Below, piece by piece: positions 1 to 61,091 of a DNA stretch of 61,091 bases. Both the position numbers and the translations under genes were made by a program. Below the pieces are notes generated by a model, which searched no databases, was not told the DNA's origin, and saw nothing but the letters and a program-made list of their open reading frames with translations. Each line of letters begins with the position of its first letter. The stretch's first letter is position 1. The stretch comes from a virus. Taxonomy: Duplodnaviria > Caudoviricetes. The DNA is taken from IMG/VR virus record IMGVR_UViG_3300021335_000017, positions 1 through 61,091 of that record; one strand, 5' to 3'.

Positions 1-1527
1 AGTCTTAATTTAGTGGATGCGGTTGGCACTATCGATGGTGCTACCGACAAAATTGTTAGGGTAAAAATAAAACGTGTTGCCGGAGGTTCTGATTGGCAGG
101 GTTGGCTTAGATACTCACACTCAGGCGAGTCTAGGGTTTCGTTTAGTAACCAGACGACATACGTTCAGATTTCTGACCCTACAACTACAGATGAGTGGGT
201 AGTTGCTGAGTTTGACATGACTAATGCTCCCGGGTGGGACAATACTGTAGATGACTTGCGTTTTGACTTTGGTAATACTGGGGCTAGTGAGTTCCACATA
301 GAGTGGATAAAAATTGGCGCTACTAGTAAGACTTTAAGTGCAGCTATTCAGACTCAGCAATCTTCTATTGATGGGGTTGAGGCTAATTACACGGTTAAGA
401 TAGACAATAACGGATCTATTGCTGGTTTTGGTCTTGCGTCTACTACTAGTGATTCTGGGAACGTAACCAGTGATTTTATGGTAGCGGCAGATAAGTTTTC
501 ACTTATGCCGTCAACTGATAGCGCAATTGCAGATTGGGCAAACGCTACAGCCTACGTCGTCGGTGACCAAGTTAAGTCTAATGACAATTACTGGGTGTGT
601 ATACAAGCCCACACTTCTGCAAATGCTAAAAAACCTCACGTAGCTGGCGGAGCAGATTACTGGAACCAAACGGACAAAACACCTTTTTCGGTACTTACAT
701 CGGCTCAAACTGTAACTGTCGGTGATGAAACCGTGACAATTGACCCGGGTGTTTATATAGATGCTGCTTACATTAAAGATGCGGATATTACTGCAGCGAA
801 AATAGGGGAGATTAATGCCGACAGTATTACTTCAGGTACATTAGATGTCACTAATCGTATAAGTGCCTCTTCTATAGAGGCCAGCAAGATATTGCTTGAT
901 GGCACTACAATGACCTCTACAACAATTGTCGGAGGCGTTAATGACGGTTTGACTGCTCTTAAAGTAGGTGCAATTAGTGCTAATGCAATAACTTCAGGGA
1001 CTATAAACGCTGGCCGACTAAATCTGGGCTCTGGCGATGAGGCGATGCTTACTGCTGGGGGTACTGGCAATAATGTCGTTCAAATTAAGGATTTAGCAGT
1101 AGATACGCTTCAATTAGCTGACCAAGCAGTAACAATACCAACTGGTGCATACACAGCAGGACAATACGAATGGTCAGCAGCTGGTTATAAAGACCTGCAA
1201 ACAATAACATACTCGCAAACTGCTGTTCCTATTGCTCTATTTTGGTCTCTTACTTGTAAACTTAGCTCATGGGGCGATGATGATTTTGAAACTCCAGCAA
1301 CATTCCATGTACGAATATTAAGGAATAATGTGGAGCTGGTAACATATGATAATCTTTTTCCTACTTTCAGCACAGGCGGTATCACGAGAATGGCGGGCGC
1401 TACGAATATACATACCGGTAGTGCTGGAACAGTTACTTATAAGCTGCAAGCAAAAGGAACAGGTACATCATTCAGAAAAGCTAGAGTTACTTCTAGAAGT
1501 ATGGTTACAATGGAGTTAAAGAAATGA
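1..1527 (+). CDS. Tail fibre / host-specificity protein, 5'-truncated copy of 56507-59263
   Basis: Frame is open from base 1 and matches the C-terminal half of the 918-aa ORF. Contains a DUF1983-like motif YTVKIDNNGSIAGFGL...DFMVAADKF. Confidence 0.85.
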   Translation, partial: SLNLVDAVGTIDGATDKIVRVKIKRVAGGSDWQGWLRYSHSGESRVSFSNQTTYVQISDPTTTDEWVVAEFDMTNAPGWDNTVDDLRFDFGNTGASEFHIEWIKIGATSKTLSAAIQTQQSSIDGVEANYTVKIDNNGSIAGFGLASTTSDSGNVTSDFMVAADKFSLMPSTDSAIADWANATAYVVGDQVKSNDNYWVCIQAHTSANAKKPHVAGGADYWNQTDKTPFSVLTSAQTVTVGDETVTIDPGVYIDAAYIKDADITAAKIGEINADSITSGTLDVTNRISASSIEASKILLDGTTMTSTTIVGGVNDGLTALKVGAISANAITSGTINAGRLNLGSGDEAMLTAGGTGNNVVQIKDLAVDTLQLADQAVTIPTGAYTAGQYEWSAAGYKDLQTITYSQTAVPIALFWSLTCKLSSWGDDDFETPATFHVRILRNNVELVTYDNLFPTFSTGGITRMAGATNIHTGSAGTVTYKLQAKGTGTSFRKARVTSRSMVTMELKK

Positions 1528-1922
1528 TTAATTATATTGTTTATAACAATGAGGGCGAGATTCTTAGAACTGGCACTTGCAGTGCAAACGATATGCATTT
1601 GCAGGGTGGACCAGATGAACACGTTATGGAAGGTATCGCAAATGATGTTACGCAAAAAATATTTGATGGCAACATTGTCGATAAAAACGAGACACCGGCA
1701 CCAAGAGAACAACTACTTAGTGAGTGTATGGAGTCCTTAAGATTTTTGAGAAATAAGAGGTTAGCAAGTTCTGACTGGACACAAGTAGCTGATTCTCCTC
1801 TTACCGAGTCTAAAAAAGCTGAATGGGCTACTTATCGTCAAGCTTTACGAAACTTGCCTAGTCAACATTTAGAAACTACAGATATAGCATCTGTTGCATG
1901 GCCTTCTCGTCCTACTTCGTAA
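1524..1922 (+). CDS. Tail fibre assembly chaperone
   Basis: LRNKRLASSDWTQVADSPL...WATYRQALRNLP motif; ATGA overlap with the tail fibre gene. Confidence 0.85.
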   Translation: MINYIVYNNEGEILRTGTCSANDMHLQGGPDEHVMEGIANDVTQKIFDGNIVDKNETPAPREQLLSECMESLRFLRNKRLASSDWTQVADSPLTESKKAEWATYRQALRNLPSQHLETTDIASVAWPSRPTS

Positions 1923-1951
1923 AAAATAGCATACCGGTTATTAATATAAGT

Positions 1952-1968
1952 TATTAGTAATACTAATA
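1952..1968. promoter_or_regulatory. 17-bp palindromic operator
   Basis: TATTAG-taata-CTAATA, upstream of attP/int. Confidence 0.75.
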
Positions 1969-2096
1969 TTTTATTAATATAATATCGCCTTATCTAATGA
2001 GGCTCCCCAATGATTACTTATATGCTGGCGTTTGCTATCGCATCGCTATCTCTTATTGCTGTTGACGATTTAAAAATAAGTCGTAACTCACGATCC

Positions 2097-2338
2097 TGTG
2101 ACAACTGTGACACTGTCACAATGAAAAATAATGAGAAACAAAATATATCGAAATATCATGAACTTAGGAATTTCCTATCTCGTAGGGGAAAATAAACTAA
2201 ATAGAACTTAAGTAATTGATAATAAATAAATTATTTGATTTTAAGGGTTCGAATCCCTCCTTCACCGCCAATTCCTAGACCCCTTGAAATACAGGGGTTT
2301 CAAGTGCATGATACCCTCCTTGTCACACATATGTCACA
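2097..2338. other. attP region with arm-type repeats and an IHF site
   Basis: TGTGACA at 2097 and 2106; TGTCACA at 2114, 2321 and 2332. IHF consensus TATCAAttacTTA on the minus strand at 2209-2221. Flanks the tRNA-like core. Confidence 0.8.
2244..2270 (+). other. att core: 3' fragment (T-arm, acceptor 3' strand, CCA) of tRNA-Ser
   Basis: AGGGTTCGAATCCCTCCTTCACCGCCA resembles the 3' ends of gammaproteobacterial tRNA-Ser. No 5' half is present. Lies immediately upstream of the integrase. Confidence 0.85.
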
Positions 2339-2352
2339 CCTAGGAGGGTGCA

Positions 2353-3354
2353 ATGGCTACAATTAGAAAGCGTGGAAGTAAGTATCAAGCGCAGATACGC
2401 GTTAAAGGATACCCCCCACAGTCTAAATCTTTCGCTACACAAGCAGCTGCTAAAGCTTGGGCACGTCGTGTTGAGTCGAGCATGGACAACGGATCATGGA
2501 TCGATACCAGTGAATCACGGTCAGTGCTCATTGACCAGATGGTTGATGATTTAATACTAAGCTTTGAAAGGTTTGGTATTGAAGTACCTAAGACAAAGAT
2601 ATCCCCCCTAAAACAAATCGCACGCTTTTTTGAAGGCAAATCGATACATGACCTGACAGTTGATGAGGTTTTAGATTTTGCAGCTGAGAGGCGTAAAACG
2701 GTGTCTGCTAGTACACTTCAATCGCAAATGTACTATTTTAGACAGACAGTTAAAAATTCTAGGATAAAGTTACAAGAAGATGTTGTTGAGATAGCTATTG
2801 CAGAGCTTATTAGAAAGAAAATTATATTAGGCAGCGTGTGGCGAGACAGACGGCTTGAGCTTCATGAATACGTGCTTCTTATGAAAGCAGCTAAAAAGCA
2901 TTGGATACGGCACGCTATTGATATAGCAATAGAGTCTGGGATGAGACAGGGTGAAATTCATGCTTTAAAAATCTCAGATATAGATTTTAAAAAGGGAGTT
3001 ATTAAGGTTTTAAGAAAAGATCCTAAGTCTGAAGGAGGTAAAAAACTTTGCAAAATACCGCTGTTAAAGGGCGTGAGAGAGGCGATCCTACGTGCACAGA
3101 ATGATATTGGTGAAGGGGATAAGCTGTTTAGAGTAAAGAAAAGTGCGTCGATTTCTGACAAATTTGCGGAGCTTAGAAAGAAAGTTGGTATTACTAATTT
3201 AACCTTCCATGATTTGCGTCACGAAGCTATCTCGAGGATGTTTGAAAGAGGTATGTCTGTAGAACAGGTTAGGCTGGTCAGTGGACATTCTAGTCTTGAC
3301 CAGCTTTCCCGGTATACAAATCTTAAACCTGAAGATGTTGCTAAGAAGTACTAA
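2353..3354 (+). CDS. int: Tyrosine integrase
   Basis: SGMRQGE, FHDLRHEA and SGH...RY catalytic motifs; N-terminal arm-binding-like domain MATIRKRG..YQAQIR. Confidence 0.96.
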   Translation: MATIRKRGSKYQAQIRVKGYPPQSKSFATQAAAKAWARRVESSMDNGSWIDTSESRSVLIDQMVDDLILSFERFGIEVPKTKISPLKQIARFFEGKSIHDLTVDEVLDFAAERRKTVSASTLQSQMYYFRQTVKNSRIKLQEDVVEIAIAELIRKKIILGSVWRDRRLELHEYVLLMKAAKKHWIRHAIDIAIESGMRQGEIHALKISDIDFKKGVIKVLRKDPKSEGGKKLCKIPLLKGVREAILRAQNDIGEGDKLFRVKKSASISDKFAELRKKVGITNLTFHDLRHEAISRMFERGMSVEQVRLVSGHSSLDQLSRYTNLKPEDVAKKY

Positions 3355-3550
3355 GATTTGCTGTTAAATAGTTTGACACTTCTACAGTAGGGAACAGGTA
3401 TTTCTTACCGCGTTTGACATGTGCTATATCTAACTTGCCTAAGTATATTTGTTGGTAGAGAGACTCTTTTTTAAGCTTGAATAAACTGGCTAACTCTCCT
3501 AAATCCATAAATGGACCATATTTATCCATTAGCATCTGTTGCATTTCCAT
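3341..3550 (-). CDS. Excisionase-like HTH protein
   Basis: 69 aa, FMDLGELASLF...KRGKKYLF winged-helix pattern; convergent with int. Confidence 0.75.
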   Translation of the reverse strand: MEMQQMLMDKYGPFMDLGELASLFKLKKESLYQQIYLGKLDIAHVKRGKKYLFPTVEVSNYLTANLSTS

Positions 3551-7249: not shown

Positions 7250-7266
7250 TATTAGCACAGCTAATA
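7250..7266 (-). promoter_or_regulatory. Operator embedded in a sigma70-like promoter
   Basis: TATTAG-cacag-CTAATA; minus-strand TGGACT-17-TAATAT. Confidence 0.8.
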
Positions 7267-7277
7267 TAAAAAGTCCA

Positions 7278-7451
7278 TCAAATGCGCGTTCTCTTACCAC
7301 AAAGCCTACAGTCTTCAGGCCAATGGTTTATTTTTATTTCTATTGGGCATTTGCAATAGTGCAATTTAGAATCGCTTTCAAACTTGTACGAGCCACCAGT
7401 TTTTACTTTCTCTGGCGTTAGCTGCAGTTTATCCCTTTCAGTCATTATCAT
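7278..7451 (-). CDS. Small Cys-containing hypothetical protein
   Basis: CKC...CRLC; fills the gap between two operators. Confidence 0.4.
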   Translation of the reverse strand: MIMTERDKLQLTPEKVKTGGSYKFESDSKLHYCKCPIEIKINHWPEDCRLCGKRTRI

Positions 7452-7467
7452 ATTAGCCCCACTAATA
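7451..7467. promoter_or_regulatory. 17-bp palindromic operator
   Basis: TATTAG-cccca-CTAATA, directly after the stop of 7468-8169. Confidence 0.8.
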
Positions 7468-9284: not shown

Positions 9285-9301
9285 TATTAGTATAGCTAAT
9301 A
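9285..9301. promoter_or_regulatory. 17-bp palindromic operator
   Basis: TATTAG-tatag-CTAATA, intergenic. Confidence 0.8.
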
Positions 9302-14768: not shown

Positions 14769-14785
14769 TATTAGCCTTACTAATA
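14769..14785 (-). promoter_or_regulatory. Operator in the spacer of a TTGACA-18-TAGTAT promoter
   Basis: TATTAG-cctta-CTAATA; TTGACA at 14791-14786 on the minus strand. Confidence 0.82.
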
Positions 14786-18707: not shown

Positions 18708-18936
18708 TACTCTTCTCCTTATTAGCCCTACTAATAACGCTACGCGTAGTAAAAATTTCAGAACTTTGTGGAAGCTCCACCTTTGATTCAAGTAACTTGT
18801 CAAAGAATTTGTCCATGATTTCGTTACAAGTTTTGTTACATATAGCTAAGTTTTTTTGCCATTCGACTGGATCTTCCATATCAATGCACCGTGCTTTTGT
18901 TAGGGTTTTTCGACCATAGTTCGCCTTCAGCTTCAC
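18673..18936 (-). CDS. Hypothetical protein
   Basis: Sense-strand ORF; true start uncertain. Confidence 0.45.
   Translation of the reverse strand: MKLKANYGRKTLTKARCIDMEDPVEWQKNLAICNKTCNEIMDKFFDKLLESKVELPQSSEIFTTRSVISRANKEKSNDQRRVRRRSV
18720..18736. promoter_or_regulatory. 17-bp palindromic operator
   Basis: TATTAG-cccta-CTAATA, adjacent to the RBS of 18543-18707. Confidence 0.75.
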
Positions 18937-21739: not shown

Positions 21740-21756
21740 TATTAGTGAGCCTAATA
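21740..21756. promoter_or_regulatory. 17-bp palindromic operator
   Basis: TATTAG-tgagc-CTAATA. Confidence 0.8.
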
Positions 21757-21826: not shown

Positions 21827-21843
21827 TATTAGCATTACTAATA
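21827..21843 (-). promoter_or_regulatory. Operator embedded in an early promoter
   Basis: TATTAG-catta-CTAATA; minus-strand TTGATT-18-TAATAT. Confidence 0.8.
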
Positions 21844-23559: not shown

Positions 23560-23578
23560 TTATTAGTTGGGCTAATAT
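23550..23578 (+). promoter_or_regulatory. Sigma70-like promoter with embedded operator (23561-23577)
   Basis: TTGCGA-17-TAATAT; TATTAG-ttggg-CTAATA. Confidence 0.8.
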
Positions 23579-30614: not shown

Positions 30615-31389
30615 ACTAGATAATTTAATTAATGCTTCTAATGCTTTAGTAGATCAGATTGATCGCGGGATCATACTTACTGGGGCAGCTATGGAGTATT
30701 CCTACACAGGCACAGGCCTATCAGATGGCACCTTGTCATCTACCGCCCACATTAGCACAGAGCAATTAGATGCTTACAACAATGCGTTGACAGGTATGAG
30801 CACGTATCTGCCTTATGGTTCTGTACAAGATGTCCTTAACGAGAAAGCGGCGCAAGAGCTAGATCTAATGGATGCTGCTATCGATACATTTACAGAAGTT
30901 GTAGTTGACATGGTACAGGTAGTACAAGTTGCTGAGATGGCAGAAGAAGCATCTAGCCCCGATGAGGAAGCAGCTGTGCAAGACTTCGTAGCAGCAAACA
31001 CTGAAGTACTTACCATAGACCAGCAAGAAGTCGATACATACAACCAGTCTCTTGATGACATTGAAACGCATGCAAACAACGCCAGTGCATTCATTGCAGT
31101 AGCTGAAAACTCAGCAGCTGTGGACTTCTTACAGCAAGGGGCGGAGAACAATAATACGACAGCAGAGCAAGCTACGGTTACTTATAGTGCTAATCAGCAA
31201 TGGGTAAGTATGCGTTGGGCCAGCACTAATAATGCTACTGCCGTATTCCTAAATGGAAACGATAACTTTGGGATAGACCTATACGTCAGTGAAGCAGACG
31301 TACTGGCTATAGGATCTGACTCAGATTACTACTTAACAGGCCCGACGGCTAATGGGTTTAATTGTTTTATGTATGAGGAATGCGAATGA
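30553..31389 (+). CDS. Exported acidic helical protein
   Basis: Signal peptide MKNKLMIMSLLAISSAAHS|N. Confidence 0.75.
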   Translation: MKNKLMIMSLLAISSAAHSNELDNLINASNALVDQIDRGIILTGAAMEYSYTGTGLSDGTLSSTAHISTEQLDAYNNALTGMSTYLPYGSVQDVLNEKAAQELDLMDAAIDTFTEVVVDMVQVVQVAEMAEEASSPDEEAAVQDFVAANTEVLTIDQQEVDTYNQSLDDIETHANNASAFIAVAENSAAVDFLQQGAENNNTTAEQATVTYSANQQWVSMRWASTNNATAVFLNGNDNFGIDLYVSEADVLAIGSDSDYYLTGPTANGFNCFMYEECE

Positions 31390-31856
31390 GCCTAGAAAAT
31401 ACTGAATTAAAGATAGGAAACACCAGCTTTAAAGGTGTATGGATCGCAATAGTGCTAACGATTGGCACCAGTATTGGTGGCACCGTGTGGACAGCTAGTA
31501 GCCTGTACTCCCGTTTAGAGGGCGTTGAGGCTAAAAAAATTCCTAATATAACACCGTTAGAAGAGTCTATAGCGCTGATACAAACACAACTTACAGATAA
31601 TGACGTCCCAAAGTTGCAGGGCAAACTAGCTGAACTAGGCGTAAACCTTAAAACCATAGCTGAGCAGCAAGAGAAGCTATTAGAGATTAAAGGTGAAGTA
31701 AAAGAGCTAAAAGAACAAGTGATTCAAATGCAAACAACCGTCGATAAAGCAGAGCGGGCAGCTAGTGATTTAGGTAAATATGACCTAGATAAAATTACTA
31801 GAGAAATACAAGATCTGTGGGATGGTATGGATTATTTATCAAATCCACTAAATTAG
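31386..31856 (+). CDS. Membrane-anchored coiled-coil protein
   Basis: TM segment VWIAIVLTIGTSIGGTVW followed by heptad repeats; ATGA coupling. Confidence 0.75.
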   Translation: MSLENTELKIGNTSFKGVWIAIVLTIGTSIGGTVWTASSLYSRLEGVEAKKIPNITPLEESIALIQTQLTDNDVPKLQGKLAELGVNLKTIAEQQEKLLEIKGEVKELKEQVIQMQTTVDKAERAASDLGKYDLDKITREIQDLWDGMDYLSNPLN

Positions 31857-31857
31857 T

Positions 31858-31886
31858 TTGCATACTTATATTAGTTGGGCTAATAT
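31858..31886 (+). promoter_or_regulatory. Capsid promoter with embedded operator (31869-31885)
   Basis: TTGCAT-17-TAATAT; TATTAG-ttggg-CTAATA. Confidence 0.82.
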
Positions 31887-31897
31887 TTAATACAGGT

Positions 31898-32085
31898 TCG
31901 TCTATCAGTACGATAACTGGTCGGCCCGTAGCCGTAAAAAACGTATCTTTCGCCTACACAGGCGTAAAACTTGTCGAGATCGCGTCTCGTTAAACAGCGC
32001 TAGTTCGTCATCCCACGATACGGGAAAACGGATTAGCCGCTCCATAAGTCGGCTAAGAGACGTGGCATGTGCCACATAATTTTTT
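31898..32085 (+). ncRNA. Structured 5' leader of capsid mRNA: five tandem pseudoknots plus two hairpins
   Basis: Five hairpins whose loops pair with sequence just downstream of a short, usually A-rich, linker; then TTAGCCG/CGGCTAA and GTGGCA/TGCCAC hairpins and a T-run. Confidence 0.65.
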
Positions 32086-32106
32086 GTCAATTTATTGGAG
32101 ACTATT

Positions 32107-33312
32107 ATGTCTAGTAATTTAACTAATTTCGGTACGCTATCAGGCGACCAACTTCAGGCGTGGTCACGCGACTTCTGGAAAGTAGCGCGTAACCAATCTT
32201 TCATCAATCAGTTTGCTGGCACTGGCTCAAACGCTATGGTTCAGCGCGTAACTGAATTAACTAAGTCTCAAAAAGGCACAAAAGCTAATATCACATTGCT
32301 AGCCGATATGACTGGAGACGGTATCACTGGTGACTTCACTCTAGAAGGCAATGAAGAAGCATTGCGTGCATATGATATCAGCATTGAGCTGGATCAATTG
32401 CGCTTTGCTAACAGAATTGCTGGCCGCATGGCTGACCAAAAGACTGTAGTTAACTTCCGTGAGCAATCTCGTGATGCTCTCGCTTATGCAATGGCTGACC
32501 GTATTGACCAGTTAGCGTTCCTAACGTTGTCTGGTGTTGGCTACAACATGAAGAACAACGGCGCAACCCGCGCTAACTCTGAGGATCCATCTGGCGATGT
32601 CACTAAAAGCGGTAACGCACTACAAGATCTTGAGTTCTCATCAGATGTTTCTGCTCCAACTGACGCACGTTGGTTACGAGTAAGCGGTTCAGGTGCTAAT
32701 GCTTCTCTGGCAGATGGTGACACTGACGCGATTACAGCTACTGATAAGCTTGGCTATCGCTCTATCGTTGAGCTAAAAGCGTACGCGAAAGACAACTACA
32801 TCCGTGGTATTCGCGCTGCTGGAAACCAAGAAGTATTCCACATGTTCGTTACTCCACAGCAAATGGCTGACCTTAAGTTAGATGCTGACTTCATCGCTAA
32901 CGTTCGTAACGCGGGTGTACGTGGTGCATCTAACAGCTTGTTCGCTGGTACTTCAAGCTTGATGGTAGATGGTGTAATGATCCACGAATTCCGTCATGTG
33001 TTTAACACTTCTGGCGCTACTGCTGGTACTTCTTCTGACGGCACTGATACAGGGGCGTACGGTAAGAAGTGGGGCGCTGACGCTAAAGTAGATGGTGCAC
33101 GTGCTCTATTCTGTGGTGCTCAAGCTCTAGCTATGGCTGATATCGGTCTACCTGAAATGGTTGAAGATACTTTCGACTATGGTAACCAGTCAGGTATCTC
33201 TGTAGGTAAGATCTTCGGTCTACGTAAGCCTATGTACAACACTGATTATGCAGCTTCTGGTAAAGCCGCTGTTCAAGACTTCGGTGTTATCTGCTTAGAC
33301 ACTGCACAGTAA
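32107..33312 (+). CDS. Major capsid protein (N4-gp56-like)
   Basis: TNF...AWSRDFW..AR, LEGNEEAL, IDQLAFLTLSG, FDYGNQ and DFGVI motifs; GGAG RBS; followed by a terminator. Confidence 0.92.
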   Translation: MSSNLTNFGTLSGDQLQAWSRDFWKVARNQSFINQFAGTGSNAMVQRVTELTKSQKGTKANITLLADMTGDGITGDFTLEGNEEALRAYDISIELDQLRFANRIAGRMADQKTVVNFREQSRDALAYAMADRIDQLAFLTLSGVGYNMKNNGATRANSEDPSGDVTKSGNALQDLEFSSDVSAPTDARWLRVSGSGANASLADGDTDAITATDKLGYRSIVELKAYAKDNYIRGIRAAGNQEVFHMFVTPQQMADLKLDADFIANVRNAGVRGASNSLFAGTSSLMVDGVMIHEFRHVFNTSGATAGTSSDGTDTGAYGKKWGADAKVDGARALFCGAQALAMADIGLPEMVEDTFDYGNQSGISVGKIFGLRKPMYNTDYAASGKAAVQDFGVICLDTAQ

Positions 33313-33325
33313 GAAAGTAATATCC

Positions 33326-33351
33326 GCCCCCTCTTAGGAGGGGGCATTTTT
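33326..33351 (+). terminator. Rho-independent terminator after the capsid gene
   Basis: GCCCCCTC-ttag-GAGGGGGC-ATTTTT. Confidence 0.85.
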
Positions 33352-56510: not shown

Positions 56511-59263
56511 GTTCGAACCCTACTAAAGTTCCCGCTATACCGCGACCTCCAAACGACGTTAGTCCGGAAGTTAGACGTTATCTTGAATCTGTACAAGAAG
56601 CATTAGAAATTCGATTAGGCCGAAGAGGCGAGCCAGAGGATAGAGCGGTAACTCTTCGAGAACTTATTGATAGCGGTTTAGCCAAAAGTCTTAACTCTGC
56701 CCCTTTTGACCCGAACAATATATCAGCTAATAACTTAGGTTTTTCTAGTTCTGTAGTTGATGCACTAGACTCTACTATACCGCCAGCTGTTACTAATTTT
56801 ACTGCGAGCGGTGCCTATAGCGTTATTAATTTAAGTTGGTATGTTGACCATAGTTTGACATTTCTTGCTCATGCTGAAATATGGCGTGCTGACACTGATG
56901 ACTTTGGCGAAGCTCAGTTTATTGACATAGCAACAGGATCTAAATATTTAGACCCTGTAGGCGGCGATCAAACTAAATACTATTGGATACGTTTTGTGTC
57001 ACAAGCTGGAGTATTTGGCCCTTTTAATGATGGCGATGGGACAGAAGCTTCCACAGCAACAGATGTAGCTCATGTCTTAAACGTATTAAATGAAGCTATA
57101 ACTTCATCTGAGTTAGCACAATCTTTAAGTGCGCCAATTGGTAATTTACCGTCCGACACAGCGGGAGCAATTGCTACTGCAGAGCAAAAAATTGATGCCA
57201 TAAAAAACACGCCTGCGTGGGCTGCAGATAACGATTATGTAATTGGTGATTTGGTTACCAAAGATAGCAATCTTTACTCCGCATTAACTGATCACACATC
57301 AACAGCTGATAACGCCCCCGATACCGAAGATGAAATAGAAGATACAACAGAGTGGAAACATATCGGTCAATACGGCAGTCTTATAGACGTAATTGCACAA
57401 ACTGAGACTACGAGAGCTACATTAAGTTCTGACTATTTAACTACTACTGATACTAATTCAGCTATAGCAACAGCTACAACTGGTTTGGTTTCGTCGACTG
57501 ATTTAGGTAGTTATGTTACTACTGCTACGCTTACTTCTGACTACATGACTTCAACTAGCACTAATTCAGCTATAGCAGCAGCTACTACGCTGCTTGAGTC
57601 TGAAATTGGTGGTACTTTTGAGCCGGGAACTACTTACGATTTTACCGGTTCAAACACACATGGGTTTACTGGTATACGAGCTACGTTAACTGCTGGCGCT
57701 AACTACCTGACTTATGAAGAAACCAGTGCGGATGCTAGTCTTAATTTAGTGGATGCGGTTGGCACTATCGATGGTGCTACCGACAAAATTGTTAGGGTAA
57801 AAATAAAACGTGTTGCCGGAGGTTCTGATTGGCAGGGTTGGCTTAGATACTCACATTCGGGCTCGACTCAAGTTTCGTTTGCTAATCAGACGACATACGT
57901 TCAGATTTCTGACCCTACAACTACAGATGAGTGGGTAATTGCTGAGTTTGACATGACTAACGCTCCCGGGTGGGATAATACTGTAGATGATTTGCGTTTT
58001 GACTTTGGTAATACGGGGGCAAGTGAGTTCCACATAGAGTGGATAAAAATTGGCGCTACTAGTAAGACTTTAAGTGCAGCTATCCAGACGCAGCAATCTT
58101 CTATCGACGGGGTTGAGGCTAATTACACTGTTAAGATAGACAATAACGGATCTATTGCTGGTTTTGGTCTTGCGTCTACTACTAGTGATTCTGGGAACGT
58201 AACCAGTGATTTTATGGTAGCGGCAGATAAGTTTTCACTTATGCCGTCAACTGATAGCGCAATTGCAGATTGGGCAAACGCTACAGCCTACGTCGTCGGT
58301 GACCAAGTTAAGTCTAATGACAATTACTGGGTGTGTATACAAGCCCACACTTCTGCAAATGCTAAAAAACCTCACGTAGCTGGCGGAGCAGATTACTGGA
58401 ACCAAACGGACAAAACACCTTTTTCGGTACTTACATCGGCTCAAACTGTAACTGTCGGTGATGAAACCGTGACAATTGACCCGGGTGTTTATATAGATGC
58501 TGCTTACATTAAAGATGCGGATATTACTGCAGCGAAAATAGGGGAGATTAATGCCGACAGTATTACTTCAGGTACATTAGATGTCACTAATCGTATAAGT
58601 GCCTCTTCTATAGAGGCCAGCAAGATATTGCTTGATGGCACTACAATGACCTCTACAACAATTGTCGGAGGCGTTAATGACGGTTTGACTGCTCTTAAAG
58701 TAGGTGCAATTAGTGCTAATGCAATAACTTCAGGGACTATAAACGCTGGCCGACTAAATCTGGGCTCTGGCGATGAGGCGATGCTTACTGCTGGGGGTAC
58801 TGGCAATAATGTCGTTCAAATTAAGGATTTAGCAGTAGATACGCTTCAATTAGCTGACCAAGCAGTAACAATACCAACTGGTGCATACACAGCAGGACAA
58901 TACGAATGGTCAGCAGCTGGTTATAAAGACCTGCAAACAATAACATACTCGCAAACTGCTGTTCCTATTGCTCTATTTTGGTCTCTTACTTGTAAACTTA
59001 GCTCATGGGGCGATGATGATTTTGAAACTCCAGCAACATTCCATGTACGAATATTAAGGAATAATGTGGAGCTGGTAACATATGATAATCTTTTTCCTAC
59101 TTTCAGCACAGGCGGTATCACGAGAATGGCGGGCGCTACGAATATACATACCGGTAGTGCTGGAACAGTTACTTATAAGCTGCAAGCAAAAGGAACAGGT
59201 ACATCATTCAGAAAAGCTAGAGTTACTTCTAGAAGTATGGTTACAATGGAGTTAAAGAAATGA
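56507..59263 (+). CDS. Tail fibre / host-specificity protein (FN3-like, CBM-like, DUF1983-like)
   Basis: AEIWRA...YYWIRFV; two W..A..Y..GD.V modules; SDY.T...TNSAIA repeats; YTVKID.NG.IAGFGL. Confidence 0.85.
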   Translation: MSSNPTKVPAIPRPPNDVSPEVRRYLESVQEALEIRLGRRGEPEDRAVTLRELIDSGLAKSLNSAPFDPNNISANNLGFSSSVVDALDSTIPPAVTNFTASGAYSVINLSWYVDHSLTFLAHAEIWRADTDDFGEAQFIDIATGSKYLDPVGGDQTKYYWIRFVSQAGVFGPFNDGDGTEASTATDVAHVLNVLNEAITSSELAQSLSAPIGNLPSDTAGAIATAEQKIDAIKNTPAWAADNDYVIGDLVTKDSNLYSALTDHTSTADNAPDTEDEIEDTTEWKHIGQYGSLIDVIAQTETTRATLSSDYLTTTDTNSAIATATTGLVSSTDLGSYVTTATLTSDYMTSTSTNSAIAAATTLLESEIGGTFEPGTTYDFTGSNTHGFTGIRATLTAGANYLTYEETSADASLNLVDAVGTIDGATDKIVRVKIKRVAGGSDWQGWLRYSHSGSTQVSFANQTTYVQISDPTTTDEWVIAEFDMTNAPGWDNTVDDLRFDFGNTGASEFHIEWIKIGATSKTLSAAIQTQQSSIDGVEANYTVKIDNNGSIAGFGLASTTSDSGNVTSDFMVAADKFSLMPSTDSAIADWANATAYVVGDQVKSNDNYWVCIQAHTSANAKKPHVAGGADYWNQTDKTPFSVLTSAQTVTVGDETVTIDPGVYIDAAYIKDADITAAKIGEINADSITSGTLDVTNRISASSIEASKILLDGTTMTSTTIVGGVNDGLTALKVGAISANAITSGTINAGRLNLGSGDEAMLTAGGTGNNVVQIKDLAVDTLQLADQAVTIPTGAYTAGQYEWSAAGYKDLQTITYSQTAVPIALFWSLTCKLSSWGDDDFETPATFHVRILRNNVELVTYDNLFPTFSTGGITRMAGATNIHTGSAGTVTYKLQAKGTGTSFRKARVTSRSMVTMELKK

Positions 59264-59658
59264 TTAATTATATTGTTTATAACAATGAGGGCGAGATTCT
59301 TAGAACTGGCACTTGCAGTGCAAACGATATGCATTTGCAGGGTGGACCAGATGAACACGTTATGGAAGGTATCGCAAATGATGTTACGCAAAAAATATTT
59401 GATGGCAACATTGTCGATAAAAACGAGACACCGGCACCAAGAGAACAACTACTTAGTGAGTGTATGGAGTCCTTAAGATTTTTGAGAAATAAGAGGTTAG
59501 CAAGTTCTGACTGGACACAAGTAGCTGATTCTCCTCTTACCGAGTCTAAAAAAGCTGAATGGGCTACTTATCGTCAAGCTTTACGAAACTTGCCTAGTCA
59601 ACATTTAGAAACTACAGATATAGCATCTGTTGCATGGCCTTCTCGTCCTACTTCGTAA
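59260..59658 (+). CDS. Tail fibre assembly chaperone (repeat copy)
   Basis: Identical protein to 1524-1922. Confidence 0.85.
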   Translation: MINYIVYNNEGEILRTGTCSANDMHLQGGPDEHVMEGIANDVTQKIFDGNIVDKNETPAPREQLLSECMESLRFLRNKRLASSDWTQVADSPLTESKKAEWATYRQALRNLPSQHLETTDIASVAWPSRPTS

Positions 59659-59979
59659 AAAATAGCATACCGGTTATTAATATAAGTTATTAGTAATACT
59701 AATATTTTATTAATATAATATCGCCTTATCTAATGAGGCTCCCCAATGATTACTTATATGCTGGCGTTTGCTATCGCATCGCTATCTCTTATTGCTGTTG
59801 ACGATTTAAAAATAAGTCGTAACTCACGATCCTGTGACAACTGTGACACTGTCACAATGAAAAATAATGAGAAACAAAATATATCGAAATATCATGAACT
59901 TAGGAATTTCCTATCTCGTAGGGGAAAATAAACTAAATAGAACTTAAGTAATTGATAATAAATAAATTATTTGATTTTA

Positions 59980-60006
59980 AGGGTTCGAATCCCTCCTTCA
60001 CCGCCA
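59980..60006 (+). other. att core (tRNA-Ser 3' fragment), repeat copy
   Basis: Same sequence as 2244-2270. Confidence 0.85.
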
Positions 60007-60088
60007 ATTCCTAGACCCCTTGAAATACAGGGGTTTCAAGTGCATGATACCCTCCTTGTCACACATATGTCACACCTAGGAGGGTGCA

Positions 60089-61090
60089 ATGGCTACAATT
60101 AGAAAGCGTGGAAGTAAGTATCAAGCGCAGATACGCGTTAAAGGATACCCCCCACAGTCTAAATCTTTCGCTACACAAGCAGCTGCTAAAGCTTGGGCAC
60201 GTCGTGTTGAGTCGAGCATGGACAACGGATCATGGATCGATACCAGTGAATCACGGTCAGTGCTCATTGACCAGATGGTTGATGATTTAATACTAAGCTT
60301 TGAAAGGTTTGGTATTGAAGTACCTAAGACAAAGATATCCCCCCTAAAACAAATCGCACGCTTTTTTGAAGGCAAATCGATACATGACCTGACAGTTGAT
60401 GAGGTTTTAGATTTTGCAGCTGAGAGGCGTAAAACGGTGTCTGCTAGTACACTTCAATCGCAAATGTACTATTTTAGACAGACAGTTAAAAATTCTAGGA
60501 TAAAGTTACAAGAAGATGTTGTTGAGATAGCTATTGCAGAGCTTATTAGAAAGAAAATTATATTAGGCAGCGTGTGGCGAGACAGACGGCTTGAGCTTCA
60601 TGAATACGTGCTTCTTATGAAAGCAGCTAAAAAGCATTGGATTAGGCACGCTATAGATATAGCAATAGAGTCTGGGATGAGACAGGGCGAAATTCATGCT
60701 TTAAAAATTTCAGATATAGATTTTAAAAAGGGAGTTATTAAGGTTTTAAGAAAAGATCCTAAGTCTGAAGGAGGTAAAAAACTTTGTAAAATACCGCTGT
60801 TAAAGGGCGTGAGAGAGGCGATCCTACGTGCACAGAATGATATTGGTGAAGGGGACAAGTTGTTTAGAGTAAAGAAAAGCGGGTCGATTTCTGACAAATT
60901 TGCGGAGCTTAGAAAGAAAGTTGGTATTACTAATTTAACCTTCCATGATTTGCGTCACGAAGCTATCTCGAGGATGTTTGAAAGAGGCATGTCTGTAGAA
61001 CAGGTTAGGCTGGTCAGTGGACATTCTAGTCTTGACCAGCTTTCCCGGTATACGAATCTTAAACCTGAAGATGTTGCTAAGAAGTACTAA
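60089..61090 (+). CDS. int: Tyrosine integrase (repeat copy)
   Basis: Same as 2353-3354 except one A->G substitution (KKSAS vs KKSGS). Confidence 0.96.
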   Translation: MATIRKRGSKYQAQIRVKGYPPQSKSFATQAAAKAWARRVESSMDNGSWIDTSESRSVLIDQMVDDLILSFERFGIEVPKTKISPLKQIARFFEGKSIHDLTVDEVLDFAAERRKTVSASTLQSQMYYFRQTVKNSRIKLQEDVVEIAIAELIRKKIILGSVWRDRRLELHEYVLLMKAAKKHWIRHAIDIAIESGMRQGEIHALKISDIDFKKGVIKVLRKDPKSEGGKKLCKIPLLKGVREAILRAQNDIGEGDKLFRVKKSGSISDKFAELRKKVGITNLTFHDLRHEAISRMFERGMSVEQVRLVSGHSSLDQLSRYTNLKPEDVAKKY

Positions 61091-61091
61091 G

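What the first reader, a model, noticed from the sequence alone, without database searches (positions are those of the whole stretch)
31898..32085. Five tandem mini H-type pseudoknots in the major-capsid mRNA leader
Seen just downstream of the promoter: (1) UCGU-cuauCAGU-ACGA-ua-ACUG, 31898-31919; (2) CGGC-cCGUa-GCCG-uaaaaa-ACG, 31922-31943; (3) CGCC-uACAca-GGCG-uaaaacu-UGU, 31951-31974; (4) CGAGA-uCGCg-UCUCG-uuaaaca-GCG, 31975-31999; (5) UCGU-caUCCC-ACGA-uac-GGGA, 32005-32025. Every unit has a (U)CG...CG stem and loop-tail complementarity with different bases. Two hairpins and a U-run follow before the RBS. The size and A-rich linkers recall preQ1-I aptamers and the T4 gene 32 operator pseudoknot, but I do not see the preQ1 consensus. 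Inference: a multivalent RNA device (ligand or protein sensor, attenuator or RNase barrier), or a separate sRNA of about 190 nt, that sets capsid output. I cannot assign it to a named family.
Basis: partly seen in the sequence, partly recalled or inferred. Interest (0 to 1): 0.85.

Follow-up and report, generated by a model that had tools for sequence, protein, structure and literature searches.

The report
Five-pseudoknot leader of phage capsid mRNA
The stretch between a phage promoter and the major capsid gene encodes a strongly conserved RNA leader folded into five tiny pseudoknots and two hairpins; it is shared by hundreds of uncultured marine phages, is absent from the RNA family library, and probably controls how much capsid protein is made.

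Summary
Window 31898-32025 contains five non-overlapping mini H-type pseudoknots, then two hairpins, a U-run, the SD and the capsid AUG (32107). By my motif definition, 0 of 2000 dinucleotide shuffles and 0 of 884 genome tiles reach five units.

The element is a real, conserved RNA.
- A covariance model built from it hits 227 of 230 loci fetched by capsid-protein similarity alone. The 3 misses have 34 nt or less of upstream DNA.
- It occurs once per genome.
- It has no Rfam match.

Covariation supports all hairpin stems. For the pseudoknot stems:
- Units 1, 3 and 4 are supported.
- Unit 2 is marginal.
- Unit 5 is almost invariant, but it repeats the unit 1 motif.

It reads as a leader, not a separate sRNA.
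- A sigma-70-like promoter ends 7-13 nt before unit 1 in 98 of 100 representatives.
- The last hairpin passes a terminator rule in only 38 of 95 homologs.
- One metatranscriptome contig runs from unit 1/2 into the capsid gene.

Function is inferred, not shown. The likeliest role is protection of the 5' end plus control of ribosome access. An alternative fold pairs the invariant loop CUCC with the SD. The resemblance to preQ1-I and T4 gene 32 is architectural only.

The parts
31858..31886 (+). Promoter: -35 TTGCAT (31858-63), 17-nt spacer, -10 TAATAT (31881-86). It overlaps the phage-wide palindrome TATTAG-N5-CTAATA (31869-85).
   Evidence: Read. In 98 of 100 representative homologs a TTGNNN-N16-18-TANNNT ends 7-13 nt before the C of CGU in unit 1. 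The core recurs at 23561 (+) and 7246 (-) in the window. The tool's own promoter scan did not call it, because its -35 matches only 3 of 6.
31898..31921 (+). Pseudoknot 1 (type A). S1 is CGU 31899-901 with ACG 31910-12. S2 is AUCAGU 31904-09 with ACUGGU 31916-21. The S2 hairpin loop is ACGAUA.
   Evidence: S2: 6 of 6 pairs have changes on both sides. S1: 300 of 300 cells are paired on A3, with types UA 85, CG 11, UG 4 at one pair and GC 99, UA 1 at another. One lineage has CUUG/CAAG instead (L453).
31922..31943 (+). Pseudoknot 2 (type B). S1 is CGGC 31922-25 with GCCG 31931-34. The loop is C-CGU-A and the linker is UAAAAA. S2 is CGU 31927-29 with ACG 31941-43. S1 abuts S2 of pseudoknot 1.
   Evidence: S1: 99.5% of cells paired, 4 of 4 pairs with double changes. 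S2: the C-G and G-C pairs are nearly invariant. The third pair is UA 57, AU 3, GU 3, CG 1, UG 1 and unpaired 35 of 100. CGG/CCG and CGA/UCG variants were seen. The register-free test is marginal: 2.87 against a permuted mean of 2.75 and maximum of 2.87.
31951..31974 (+). Pseudoknot 3 (type B). S1 is CGCCU 31951-55 with AGGCG 31960-64. The linker is UAAAACU. S2 is ACA 31956-58 with UGU 31972-74. The 3' strand of S2 abuts S1 of pseudoknot 4.
   Evidence: Pair 31956:31974 is GC 56, AU 30, GU 9 and never unpaired in 95 sequences. It gives 11 independent contrasts on the capsid-gene tree, about 6.8 in the same direction and 0 opposite, median p 0.016. It ranks 7th of all column pairs by corrected mutual information. 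Register-free test: 2.77 against a permuted 2.33, maximum 2.46.
31975..31999 (+). Pseudoknot 4 (type B). S1 is CGAGA 31975-79 with UCUCG 31985-89. The loop is U-CGC-G and the linker is UUAAACA. S2 is CGC 31981-83 with GCG 31997-99.
   Evidence: S1: 98.6% paired, 5 of 5 pairs with double changes. S2 pairs: CG 99; GC 94, AU 4, GU 1; CG 74, UA 7, UG 2, AU 1, other 16. Whole-stem replacements were seen: CAUAC/GUAUG, CGUA/UACG, CGCA/UGCG. Register-free test: 3.10 against a permuted 2.87, maximum 3.02.
32005..32025 (+). Pseudoknot 5 (type A). S1 is CGU 32006-08 with ACG 32015-17. S2 is UCCC 32011-14 with GGGA 32022-25. The loop is ACGAUAC.
   Evidence: S2: 98% paired, 4 of 4 pairs with double changes. 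S1: 94% paired and almost invariant (UA 97, UG 2, CG 1). The 9 unpaired cells come from a subgroup in which the CGU sits 1-2 nt away. S1 competes with the alternative helix 32000-07:32029-36.
32033..32056 (+). Hairpin 6. UUAGCCG pairs with CGGCUAA. The 10-nt loop starts with CUCC (32040-43), which is complementary to the SD.
   Evidence: 93.9% paired, 6 of 7 pairs with double changes on A3. CUCC is invariant in the 95 sequences of A1. In nested MFE folds, CUCC pairs with the SD GGAG in 68 of 95 homologs.
32062..32085 (+). Hairpin 7 (GUGGC/GCCAC, loop AUGU), then AUAA and U6. It looks like a terminator in this window.
   Evidence: Called by the terminator scan. The stem covaries, with 4 of 5 pairs showing double changes. 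Only 38 of 95 homologs keep at least 5 T in the 8-nt window after the stem, 50 have the hairpin without that T-run, and 7 have no such hairpin.
32097..32109 (+). Shine-Dalgarno GGAG (32097-100) and the AUG (32107-09) of the major head protein gene (32107-33312).
   Evidence: ORF listing. phrog_334 major head protein, E 2.7e-79. A terminator-like hairpin follows the gene at 33326-33345.

Best explanation
Window 31893-32106 is the transcribed 5' leader of the major-capsid mRNA of an uncultured marine podophage. The phage is distantly related to Pseudomonas phage KPP25 (49% capsid identity).

The leader folds into five compact H-type pseudoknots, a hairpin whose loop carries an anti-SD CUCC, and a final hairpin just before the SD. 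The pseudoknots are two composite rods (PK1+PK2 and PK3+PK4) plus PK5.

Shown here:
- the RNA-level structure,
- its conservation,
- its fixed place between promoter and capsid gene,
- one copy per genome.

Inferred, step 1. Transcription starts 0-6 nt before PK1, so the 5' end is buried in structure. The array acts in cis to shield the mRNA from 5'-end-dependent decay, and so sustains very high capsid output.

Inferred, step 2. The 3' module sets ribosome access. It can adopt one of two folds. One is PK5 plus hairpin 6. The other is a longer helix (32000-07 with 32029-36) that frees CUCC to pair with the SD. The balance between the folds tunes, or switches, translation initiation.
For: Structure. 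On 95 distinct leaders, 93.9% of cells pair, against 27-43% when partners are slid by 1-3 columns. 23 pairs have double changes, and 0 of 500 shuffles reach the observed values. On 100 representatives more than 3.5% apart, aligned by a model that contains no pseudoknot pairs, 92.0% of cells pair and 39 of 48 pairs have double changes.

Pseudoknot stems. PK1 S1 is paired in 300 of 300 cells, with 11 CG and 1 UA double changes. For the PK3 pair. PK4 and PK3 beat all 300 tail permutations.

Strand. Frequent G-U pairs, for example UG in 39 of 87 and 45 of 87 sequences, would be C-A on the other strand. The structure is therefore read from + strand RNA.

Not coding. The linker between PK2 and PK3 varies from 4 to 10 nt.

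Conservation. The model hits 79 of 80, 98 of 100 and 50 of 50 loci fetched by capsid similarity. There is one hit in the window (185 bits; the next best is 10 bits) and one in each of 5 related genomes.

Leader rather than sRNA. See the promoter position, the weak conservation of the T-run, and an RNA-library contig of 1353 nt at depth 23.7 that ends at 31919 and continues through hairpin 7 into the coding sequence, with depth 0-2.6 upstream of 31906.

SD control. CUCC is invariant in A1. The SD is at least 3/4 paired in 88 of 95 nested MFE folds, and paired with CUCC in 68 of 95. The nucleotide after CUCC can pair with the one before GGAG in 69 of 92 sequences, about 51 expected from the marginals.
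Against: - No experiment or read-level data shows a 5' end, a half-life effect or a translation effect.
- The RNA evidence is one assembled contig from one study. It comes from a roughly 90% identical relative, in a library that may hold DNA.
- A pure stabiliser would not need invariant loop and tail sequences. That conservation hints at a specific partner.
- Anti-SD covariation is not significant once relatedness is allowed for: 8 contrasts, p 0.125, and a permutation test of 5.13 against 4.97, sd 0.10, max 5.34.
- One lineage (L448 group) lacks hairpin 6, and 18 of 99 representatives lack CUCC.
- PK2 support is marginal, and PK5 S1 is nearly invariant.
- The alternative helix has 26 of 100 unpaired cells at its central pair.
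- Cultured relatives (KPP25, phiA008, AP1) lack the element although they express the homologous capsid gene.
Confidence: 0.5

Rival explanations
1. Protein-binding translational operator. The repeated pseudoknots, with their invariant CG-containing loops and A-rich linkers, are a multivalent binding platform. The partner could be a phage protein, such as free capsid or scaffold protein giving assembly-coupled feedback. It could also be a host protein, such as ribosomal protein S1 or CsrA. Binding would shift the 3' module between SD-open and SD-closed folds.
For: - Loop and tail nucleotides are invariant while the stems drift freely.
- Two motif types recur, type A twice and type B three times.
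- The invariant ACGGAUUAGCCGCUCC block lies at the junction of two mutually exclusive folds.
- From recall, not tested here: T4 gp32 and P22 scaffold protein autoregulate after transcription, and SELEX ligands of S1 are pseudoknots.
Against: - No candidate partner was identified.
- The gene just upstream of the promoter differs among relatives, so no linked RNA-binding gene is evident.
- The invariance of CG/CG in 3-bp stems is also explained by the need for strong pairs in very short helices.
Confidence: 0.2
2. Processive antitermination or transcription-elongation element. It would act on RNA polymerase in cis, as the put RNAs of phage HK022 do, and carry late transcription through downstream terminators.
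For: - It lies immediately downstream of a promoter at the head of the structural gene block.
- A terminator-like hairpin lies within the leader in some homologs, and another lies right after the capsid gene at 33326-45.
Against: - The element is tied to the capsid gene only. The two other copies of the same promoter core in the window have no such leader.
- No similarity to any Rfam family was found. Whether put RNAs are in Rfam was not checked.
- A promoter-like site precedes the next gene, so read-through may not be needed.
Confidence: 0.08
3. A separate small RNA of about 190 nt that ends at hairpin 7 and the U-run. The capsid gene would be expressed only by read-through, making this an attenuator, or the RNA would act in trans.
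For: The window's hairpin 7 plus U6 passes the terminator scan. 38 of 95 homologs also pass.
Against: - 57 of 95 homologs fail the rule. The U-run is always separated from the stem by about 4 nt (AUAA), and several lineages have no U-run at all.
- An RNA-library contig bridges the site.
- The element is always 50-60 nt from the capsid AUG.
Confidence: 0.07
4. A tandem riboswitch. Each mini pseudoknot would be a small-ligand aptamer of the preQ1-I kind.
For: The architecture (short stem, loop paired to a tail after an A-rich linker) is that of preQ1-I aptamers. That description is recalled. The loop-tail pairing itself was seen.
Against: - No Rfam riboswitch match, even at E <= 10 or E <= 1 in 7 homologs.
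- Type B loops are only 5 nt (1 + 3 + 1), which leaves no unpaired conserved pocket.
- The downstream gene is a capsid protein, not a metabolic or transport gene.
Confidence: 0.05
5. A DNA-level element, such as operators, an origin or a packaging site made of small inverted repeats.
For: The hairpins are inverted repeats in DNA. A palindromic motif overlaps the promoter.
Against: - Stems keep pairing through G-U, which is C-A on the complementary strand.
- Stem sequences differ between units and between homologs while the pairing is kept.
- The loop-tail covariation has no DNA-duplex reading.
Confidence: 0.02

Closest known systems
Minimal H-type pseudoknots: luteovirus (BWYV-type) frameshift pseudoknots and preQ1-I aptamers (architecture recalled, not tested)
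   Same: Type B units have a 4-5-bp GC-rich S1, a 1-nt L1, a 3-bp S2 and a 6-7-nt A-rich L3 that could lie in the S1 minor groove. Each unit is 22-25 nt in total. The linker adenines are invariant (A42, A44, A45, A72-74).
   Different: - They lie in a 5' UTR, not in a coding region, and no slippery site is present.
- There is no ligand-pocket loop and no Rfam preQ1 match.
- Five units are strung together.
Upstream pseudoknot domain of tobamovirus/tymovirus 3' UTRs, and the PK1-PK4 string of tmRNA (recalled)
   Same: Several small pseudoknots follow one another directly, so that stems can stack into rods. Here, S2 of PK1 abuts S1 of PK2, and S2 of PK3 abuts S1 of PK4.
   Different: - Those elements are 3' UTR or non-coding RNA elements of plant RNA viruses and bacteria.
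- No tRNA-like domain or tag ORF is present here. ARAGORN finds 0 genes in the window.
T4 gene 32 translational operator (recalled; quotes a paper saying no Rfam model exists)
   Same: A pseudoknot in the 5' leader of a highly expressed phage gene, with UAAA/UUAAA repeats upstream of the RBS.
   Different: - In T4, by recall, the repeats are unstructured and bound cooperatively by the ssDNA-binding protein that the gene encodes.
- Here the UAAA stretches are pseudoknot linkers, and the gene encodes a capsid protein.
5'-terminal stabiliser structures of bacterial and phage mRNAs: ompA 5' UTR, T7 gene 10 leader (recalled)
   Same: Structure begins within a few nt of the predicted 5' end of a very highly expressed mRNA.
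   Different: - Those are simple stem-loops without conserved loop sequences.
- This is a 130-nt array of pseudoknots with invariant loop and tail nucleotides.
Candidate structured RNAs catalogued from IMG/VR (PMC10690425)
   Same: Same data source and the same kind of object. The paper reports five candidates typically found upstream of a major capsid protein domain, PHA00201 (passages read).
   Different: I could not see its supplementary alignments because supplements are closed. I therefore cannot tell whether this motif is among its 8495 candidates. The text describes no five-pseudoknot leader.

Membership tests
Any Rfam 15 family | A covariance-model match | tested here: not met
   Window 31600-32400 at E <= 10 gave only NsiR4 at 13.2 bits, E 4.8, inside the coding sequence. 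Seven homologous loci at E <= 1 gave 0 matches.
preQ1-I riboswitch | Match to the Rfam preQ1 model | tested here: not met
   No match at E <= 10.
preQ1-I riboswitch | A hairpin loop long enough to hold the ligand-pairing C and the L1/L2 nucleotides (recalled as about 9-11 nt) | tested here: not met
   The loops of units 2-4 are 5 nt in most of the 100 representatives.
preQ1-I riboswitch | An A-rich 3' tail whose end pairs with the loop | tested here: met
   U(A/U)AAA-rich 6-7-nt linkers are followed by the loop complement.
preQ1-I riboswitch | Location upstream of queuosine synthesis or transport genes | tested here: not met
   The downstream gene is the major head protein.
H-type pseudoknot (structural class) | Two stems in which loop nucleotides of the first hairpin pair with a downstream (or upstream) strand, both kept in evolution | tested here: met
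   - Met for PK1, PK3 and PK4, with double changes in both stems.
- PK2 is marginal.
- PK5 S1 is compatible but nearly invariant.
T4 gene 32-type autogenous operator | A leader pseudoknot plus an unstructured A/U-rich repeat region over the RBS, upstream of the gene for the protein that binds it | tested here: inconclusive
   Pseudoknots and UAAA repeats are present. However, the repeats lie inside the pseudoknots, the gene product is a capsid protein, and binding cannot be tested with these tools.
Intrinsic terminator / attenuator (hairpin 7) | A GC-rich stem followed at once by a U-run, conserved among homologs | tested here: inconclusive
   The window passes the scan. Only 38 of 95 homologs pass the same rule. 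An RNA-library contig bridges the site.
tmRNA / tRNA-like RNA | A tRNA-like domain or a tag reading frame | tested here: not met
   ARAGORN finds 0 genes in the window.
Processive antitermination RNA (HK022 put-like) | Action on RNA polymerase in cis; two stem-loops with conserved bulges | not testable with these tools
   Only the position after a promoter is comparable. No sequence model of put was at hand.

The most novel reading that the evidence does not exclude
The leader is a new class of modular riboregulator. An array of five stacked mini-pseudoknots acts as a folding or sensing platform for a phage or host protein, or for co-transcriptional folding speed. It decides between two exclusive folds of the 3' module. 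One fold is PK5 plus hairpin 6. The other is a long helix that releases the anti-SD CUCC onto the SD. In this way it couples capsid-protein translation to the state of infection or assembly in a widespread group of marine phages.
Probability: 0.2. Interest if true: 0.85.

Novelty: new variant of a known kind. Interest (0 to 1): 0.68.

Why it matters
Structured 5' leaders that control phage structural genes are poorly known, and very few are in Rfam. This one has several features that make it worth follow-up.
- It is unusually well defined. It is about 165 nt, has seven helical modules, and shows covariation in both nested and pseudoknot stems.
- It is present in every relative whose upstream DNA could be examined.
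- It belongs to phages found in seawater, estuary and other aquatic metagenomes of 10 studies. More than 598 capsid-gene relatives are in IMG/VR.

A tandem array of the smallest known kind of pseudoknot at the 5' end of a bacterial-type mRNA is unusual. If it stabilises or gates the capsid mRNA, it would be:
- a compact natural expression-control module,
- a new RNA family for annotation of marine viromes,
- a tractable object for RNA structural biology, as stacked pseudoknot rods.

Tried and rejected
- DNA search of the GenBank phage collection with 31380-33320 found no match.
- The capsid protein finds only distant cultured relatives, all below 50% identity. Their capsid leaders (KPP25, phiA008, AP1) give no model hit. 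The best is E 0.26, on the wrong strand inside a gene. Their mini-pseudoknot counts (0, 2, 2) lie within shuffles. By eye, AP1 and phiA008 share one hairpin-YCUUGAC-linker-GUC unit. I did not pursue it.
- The RNAalifold long-range helix CGU 31899-901: ACG 32028-30 is rejected. When CGU becomes CGC in 11 representatives, the local partner becomes GCG, while in the divergent leaders I read the distal ACGG stays unchanged.
- Fourth pairs proposed for PK3 and PK4 are not general. They are paired in 21 of 100 and 25 of 98 sequences.
- The outer U-A pair of PK1 is not kept.
- Anti-SD:SD covariation is suggestive only.
- The third pair of PK4 on the tree gives 4 contrasts and is not significant.
None of the 120 carries the extended hairpin-6 motif. 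About 2000 chance matches to the 15-mer are expected by my arithmetic. This says nothing about hosts or prophages.
- Of the 24 sequencing runs listed, only 1 is an RNA run, with a word share of 0.09. Contigs cannot show ends, strand or level, so one search is a weak hint only. The uncovered part upstream in X20 is not evidence of absence.
- Literature searches for prior descriptions gave search listings only. Nothing relevant appeared except PMC10690425, of which I read the passages returned. Its supplements are closed and may contain this motif.
Full report
WHAT IS THERE

The window is a complete phage record of 61 kb. The finding lies in the 250-nt gap between a 158-aa ORF (31380-31856) and the major head protein gene (AUG 32107, stop 33312). 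That gene matches phrog_334 at E 2.7e-79.

Read 5' to 3', the gap holds:
- a sigma-70-like promoter (TTGCAT, 17 nt, TAATAT, ending at 31886);
- a 7-bp hairpin (32033-56) with a 10-nt loop that starts CUCC;
- a 5-bp GC hairpin (32062-75), followed by AUAA and U6;
- GGAG (32097-100) and the AUG.

IS IT MORE THAN CHANCE?

I defined a mini pseudoknot as at least 4 WC pairs, a loop of 5-10 nt, and at least 3 WC pairs between the loop and a tail starting 2-8 nt after the stem. By that definition the 138-nt stretch holds five non-overlapping units.
- None of 2000 dinucleotide shuffles reaches five. Two reach four.
- None of 884 equal-sized tiles of both strands of the phage reaches five. Five reach four.

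The nested fold is also unusually stable: z = -3.43, with 0 of 200 shuffles as stable.

CONSERVATION

Searching IMG/VR with the capsid protein gave 451 relatives, of which the best 80 were kept. Their upstream regions are visibly the same element. A 15-mer from hairpin 6 fetched further copies. Together these gave 95 distinct leaders.

I built a covariance model of the nested hairpins only: R1, with 163 positions and 31 pairs. It behaves as follows.
- It finds one place in the window, at 185 bits. The next best hit is 10 bits.
- It finds one place in each of five related genomes of 50-60 kb.
- It hits 79 of the 80 loci fetched by capsid similarity. The 80th has no upstream DNA.

Two more capsid searches started from divergent members. 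The model hit 98 of 100 and 50 of 50 of the new loci. The two misses have 34 nt or less upstream. Some contigs were fetched more than once, so these are counts of locus records.

The gene upstream of the promoter differs among relatives, while promoter, leader and capsid gene stay together.

The nearest cultured phages are KPP25/phiR18 at 49% capsid identity, Aeromonas phiA008 and Acidovorax AP1. They have capsid leaders of 120-150 nt but no match to the model. Their pseudoknot-like units are no more numerous than in shuffles.

STRUCTURE: NESTED STEMS

On the 95 leaders, 93.9% of cells pair, against 27-43% for slid partners. 23 of 53 pairs show changes on both sides. Corrected mutual information ranks the proposed stem pairs at the top of all column pairs. 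Frequent G-U pairs show that the + strand RNA is what folds. The PK2-PK3 linker varies from 4 to 10 nt, so the region is not coding.

STRUCTURE: PSEUDOKNOT STEMS

PK3 gave the clearest signal in the close set.
- Pair 31956:31974 is G-C in 56, A-U in 30 and G-U in 9 of 95 sequences, and never unpaired.
- On a tree built from the capsid coding sequence alone, the two columns change 13 and 15 times.
- That gives 11 independent contrasts. About 6.8 go the same way and none goes the opposite way, with a median p of 0.016.

The divergent leaders (70-120 bits) then supplied whole-stem replacements:
- PK1 S1: CGU/ACG becomes CGC/GCG in about ten lineages and CUUG/CAAG in one.
- PK2 S2: CGU/ACG becomes CGG/CCG or CGA/UCG.
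- PK3 S2: becomes GUAA/UUAC, ACAC/GUGU, GCAC/GUGC, GCAU/AUGC or GAUA/UAUU.
- PK4 S2: CGC/GCG becomes CAUAC/GUAUG, CGUA/UACG or CGCA/UGCG.

I then aligned 100 representatives, each more than 3.5% apart, to the model (A3). The model knows nothing of the pseudoknot pairs. On that alignment:
- PK1 S1 is paired in 300 of 300 cells (UA 85, CG 11, UG 4; GC 99, UA 1).
- PK3 S2 is 89.5% paired.
- The first three pairs of PK4 S2 are CG 99; GC 94, AU 4, GU 1; and CG 74, UA 7, UG 2, AU 1, other 16.
- PK2 S2 is 87% paired, but its third pair fails in 35 of 100.
- PK5 S1 is 94% paired and almost invariant.

A register-free score of loop-tail complementarity, compared with 300 permutations of tails among sequences, gave:
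- PK3: 2.77 against 2.33 (max 2.46). It beats every permutation.
- PK4: 3.10 against 2.87 (max 3.02). It beats every permutation.
- PK2: 2.87 against 2.75 (max 2.87). It only ties the best permutation.

So three of the five pseudoknots are supported by covariation, one is marginal, and one (PK5) is supported mainly by being the same motif as PK1.

ARCHITECTURE

There are two unit types.
- Type A (units 1 and 5): CGU, 1-4 nt, a 4-7-bp variable stem whose loop is ACGAUA(C), with the loop ACG pairing back to the CGU.
- Type B (units 2-4): a 4-5-bp stem, a 5-nt loop N-XYZ-N, a 6-7-nt linker U(A/U)AAA(A/C)N with invariant adenines, and then the complement of XYZ.

S2 of PK1 runs straight into S1 of PK2. 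The 3' strand of S2 of PK3 runs straight into S1 of PK4. Each pair could therefore stack into a rod of about 16 bp. That stacking is inference from adjacency.

LEADER OR SEPARATE RNA?

- In 98 of 100 representatives a TTGNNN-N16-18-TANNNT promoter ends 7-13 nt before the C of the PK1 CGU. The 5' end would therefore lie 0-6 nt before the first stem.
- Hairpin 7 passes the terminator rule in the window but in only 38 of 95 homologs. 50 have the hairpin without the T-run and 7 have no such hairpin.
- In the one RNA library that holds a relative (X20), a 1353-nt contig of depth 23.7 ends at window position 31919. It continues through hairpin 7 and the SD into the capsid gene. Depth upstream of 31906 is 0-2.6. 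DNA-run contigs run straight through. The tool warns that such contigs prove neither transcription nor a single transcript, so this is a weak hint. It does agree with the promoter position.

THE 3' MODULE

Nested MFE folds of 94 of the 95 leaders do not choose hairpin 6. They choose a helix CUAGUUCG (32000-07): CGGAUUAG (32029-36) that encloses S2 of PK5. In 68 of 95 the freed CUCC pairs with the SD GGAG, and in 88 of 95 the SD is at least 3/4 paired. In the window this fold is -67.2 kcal/mol, against -58.2 with hairpin 6 forced.

That helix excludes PK5 S1 and hairpin 6. It is compatible with the alignments:
- 94.8% of cells pair in the close set, with only one-sided changes.
- In the diverse set its two segments are 92.4% and 87.9% paired, with 15 double-change cells but 26 of 100 unpaired at the central pair.

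Hairpin 6 itself covaries, with 6 of 7 pairs showing double changes. Both folds are therefore credible, which is what a switch would look like.

Direct covariation between the hairpin-6 loop and the SD flank is suggestive only.
- 69 of 92 sequences can pair at that position, against about 51 expected.
- The tree-aware p is 0.125.
- The permutation test is not significant.
- 13 of the 18 loops that lack CUCC still have at least 4 nt complementary to their own SD region.

WHAT IT MOST LIKELY DOES

Shown: a conserved, single-copy, + strand RNA structure fixed between promoter and capsid gene.

Inferred: it acts in cis on the capsid mRNA. My preferred reading (0.5) has two parts.
- A 5'-end shield. 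From recalled knowledge of RNase E and RppH and of the ompA and T7 gene 10 leaders, 5'-terminal structure protects mRNAs.
- Control of SD access by the 3' module.

The invariance of loop and tail nucleotides could reflect the need for strong pairs in 3-bp stems. It could equally reflect a protein partner (rival at 0.2). Antitermination (0.08), a separate sRNA (0.07), a riboswitch (0.05) and a DNA-level role (0.02) are less likely, for the reasons given under each rival.

COMPARISON WITH WHAT IS KNOWN

There is no Rfam family at E <= 10 in the window or at E <= 1 in seven homologs.

The units have the architecture of minimal H-type pseudoknots (luteoviral frameshifters and preQ1-I aptamers, recalled). 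They fail the preQ1-I tests that I could run: model match, loop length and gene context.

The string of abutting pseudoknots recalls the tobamovirus upstream pseudoknot domain and tmRNA (recalled). There is no tRNA-like part here.

Literature searches found no description of such a leader (listings only). A 2023 catalogue of 8495 candidate structured RNAs from IMG/VR mentions five candidates upstream of a major capsid protein domain (passages read).

VERDICT

Function remains open. I rate it a new variant of a known kind (structured cis-acting phage mRNA leaders built from H-type pseudoknots), with interest 0.68.

Noticed in passing
window, e.g. 1952-1968, 7250-7266, 7451-7467, 9285-9301, 14769-14785, 18720-18736, 21740-21756, 21827-21843, 23561-23577, 31869-31885, 59688-59704: The palindrome TATTAG-N5-CTAATA occurs 25 times with up to 2 mismatches, against 4.9 expected; 0 of 100 shuffles reach 25. 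Twelve copies are exact. It overlaps the -10 box of the capsid promoter and of at least two other promoter-like sites. It is likely a phage-wide promoter or operator motif for a dimeric regulator.
   Followed up: partly
window 1-3355 and 57737-61091: The two ends of the record are direct repeats, 98.99% identical over 3357 aligned positions. The unit genome is therefore about 57.7 kb. The 1% difference suggests either a long terminal repeat or an assembly that wrapped around two strain variants.
   Followed up: partly
L088, L123, L131, L149, L188 (and L050), between hairpin 6 and the SD: In one subgroup of relatives, hairpin 7 is replaced by an 11-bp hairpin containing TATTAGTGGCACTAATG, or TGTTAGTGACAATAATG in L188. 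This is a near copy of the promoter palindrome. It may be a second promoter or operator inside the leader.
   Followed up: no
L448, L451, L454-L456 (model hits of 138 nt): This lineage keeps PK1-PK5 but lacks hairpin 6 and the ACGGAUUAGCC block. A different GC hairpin follows instead.
   Followed up: no
window 33326-33345: A strong terminator-like hairpin (8 pairs, 7 of them GC, then AUUUUU) lies 14 nt after the capsid stop codon. A promoter-like site lies at 33296-33323. This suggests a largely monocistronic, high-abundance capsid transcript.
   Followed up: no
L001-L080, upstream of the promoter: At least four different genes or ends of genes precede the promoter-leader-capsid module in different relatives. 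The module moves as a unit in a mosaic background.
   Followed up: no
L203 1341-1365 and L204 1428-1450: The capsid leaders of Aeromonas phage phiA008 and Acidovorax phage AP1 share one hairpin with loop YCUUGAC, followed by U(A/G)AA and GUC. This possible single mini-pseudoknot is unrelated in sequence to the marine element.
   Followed up: partly
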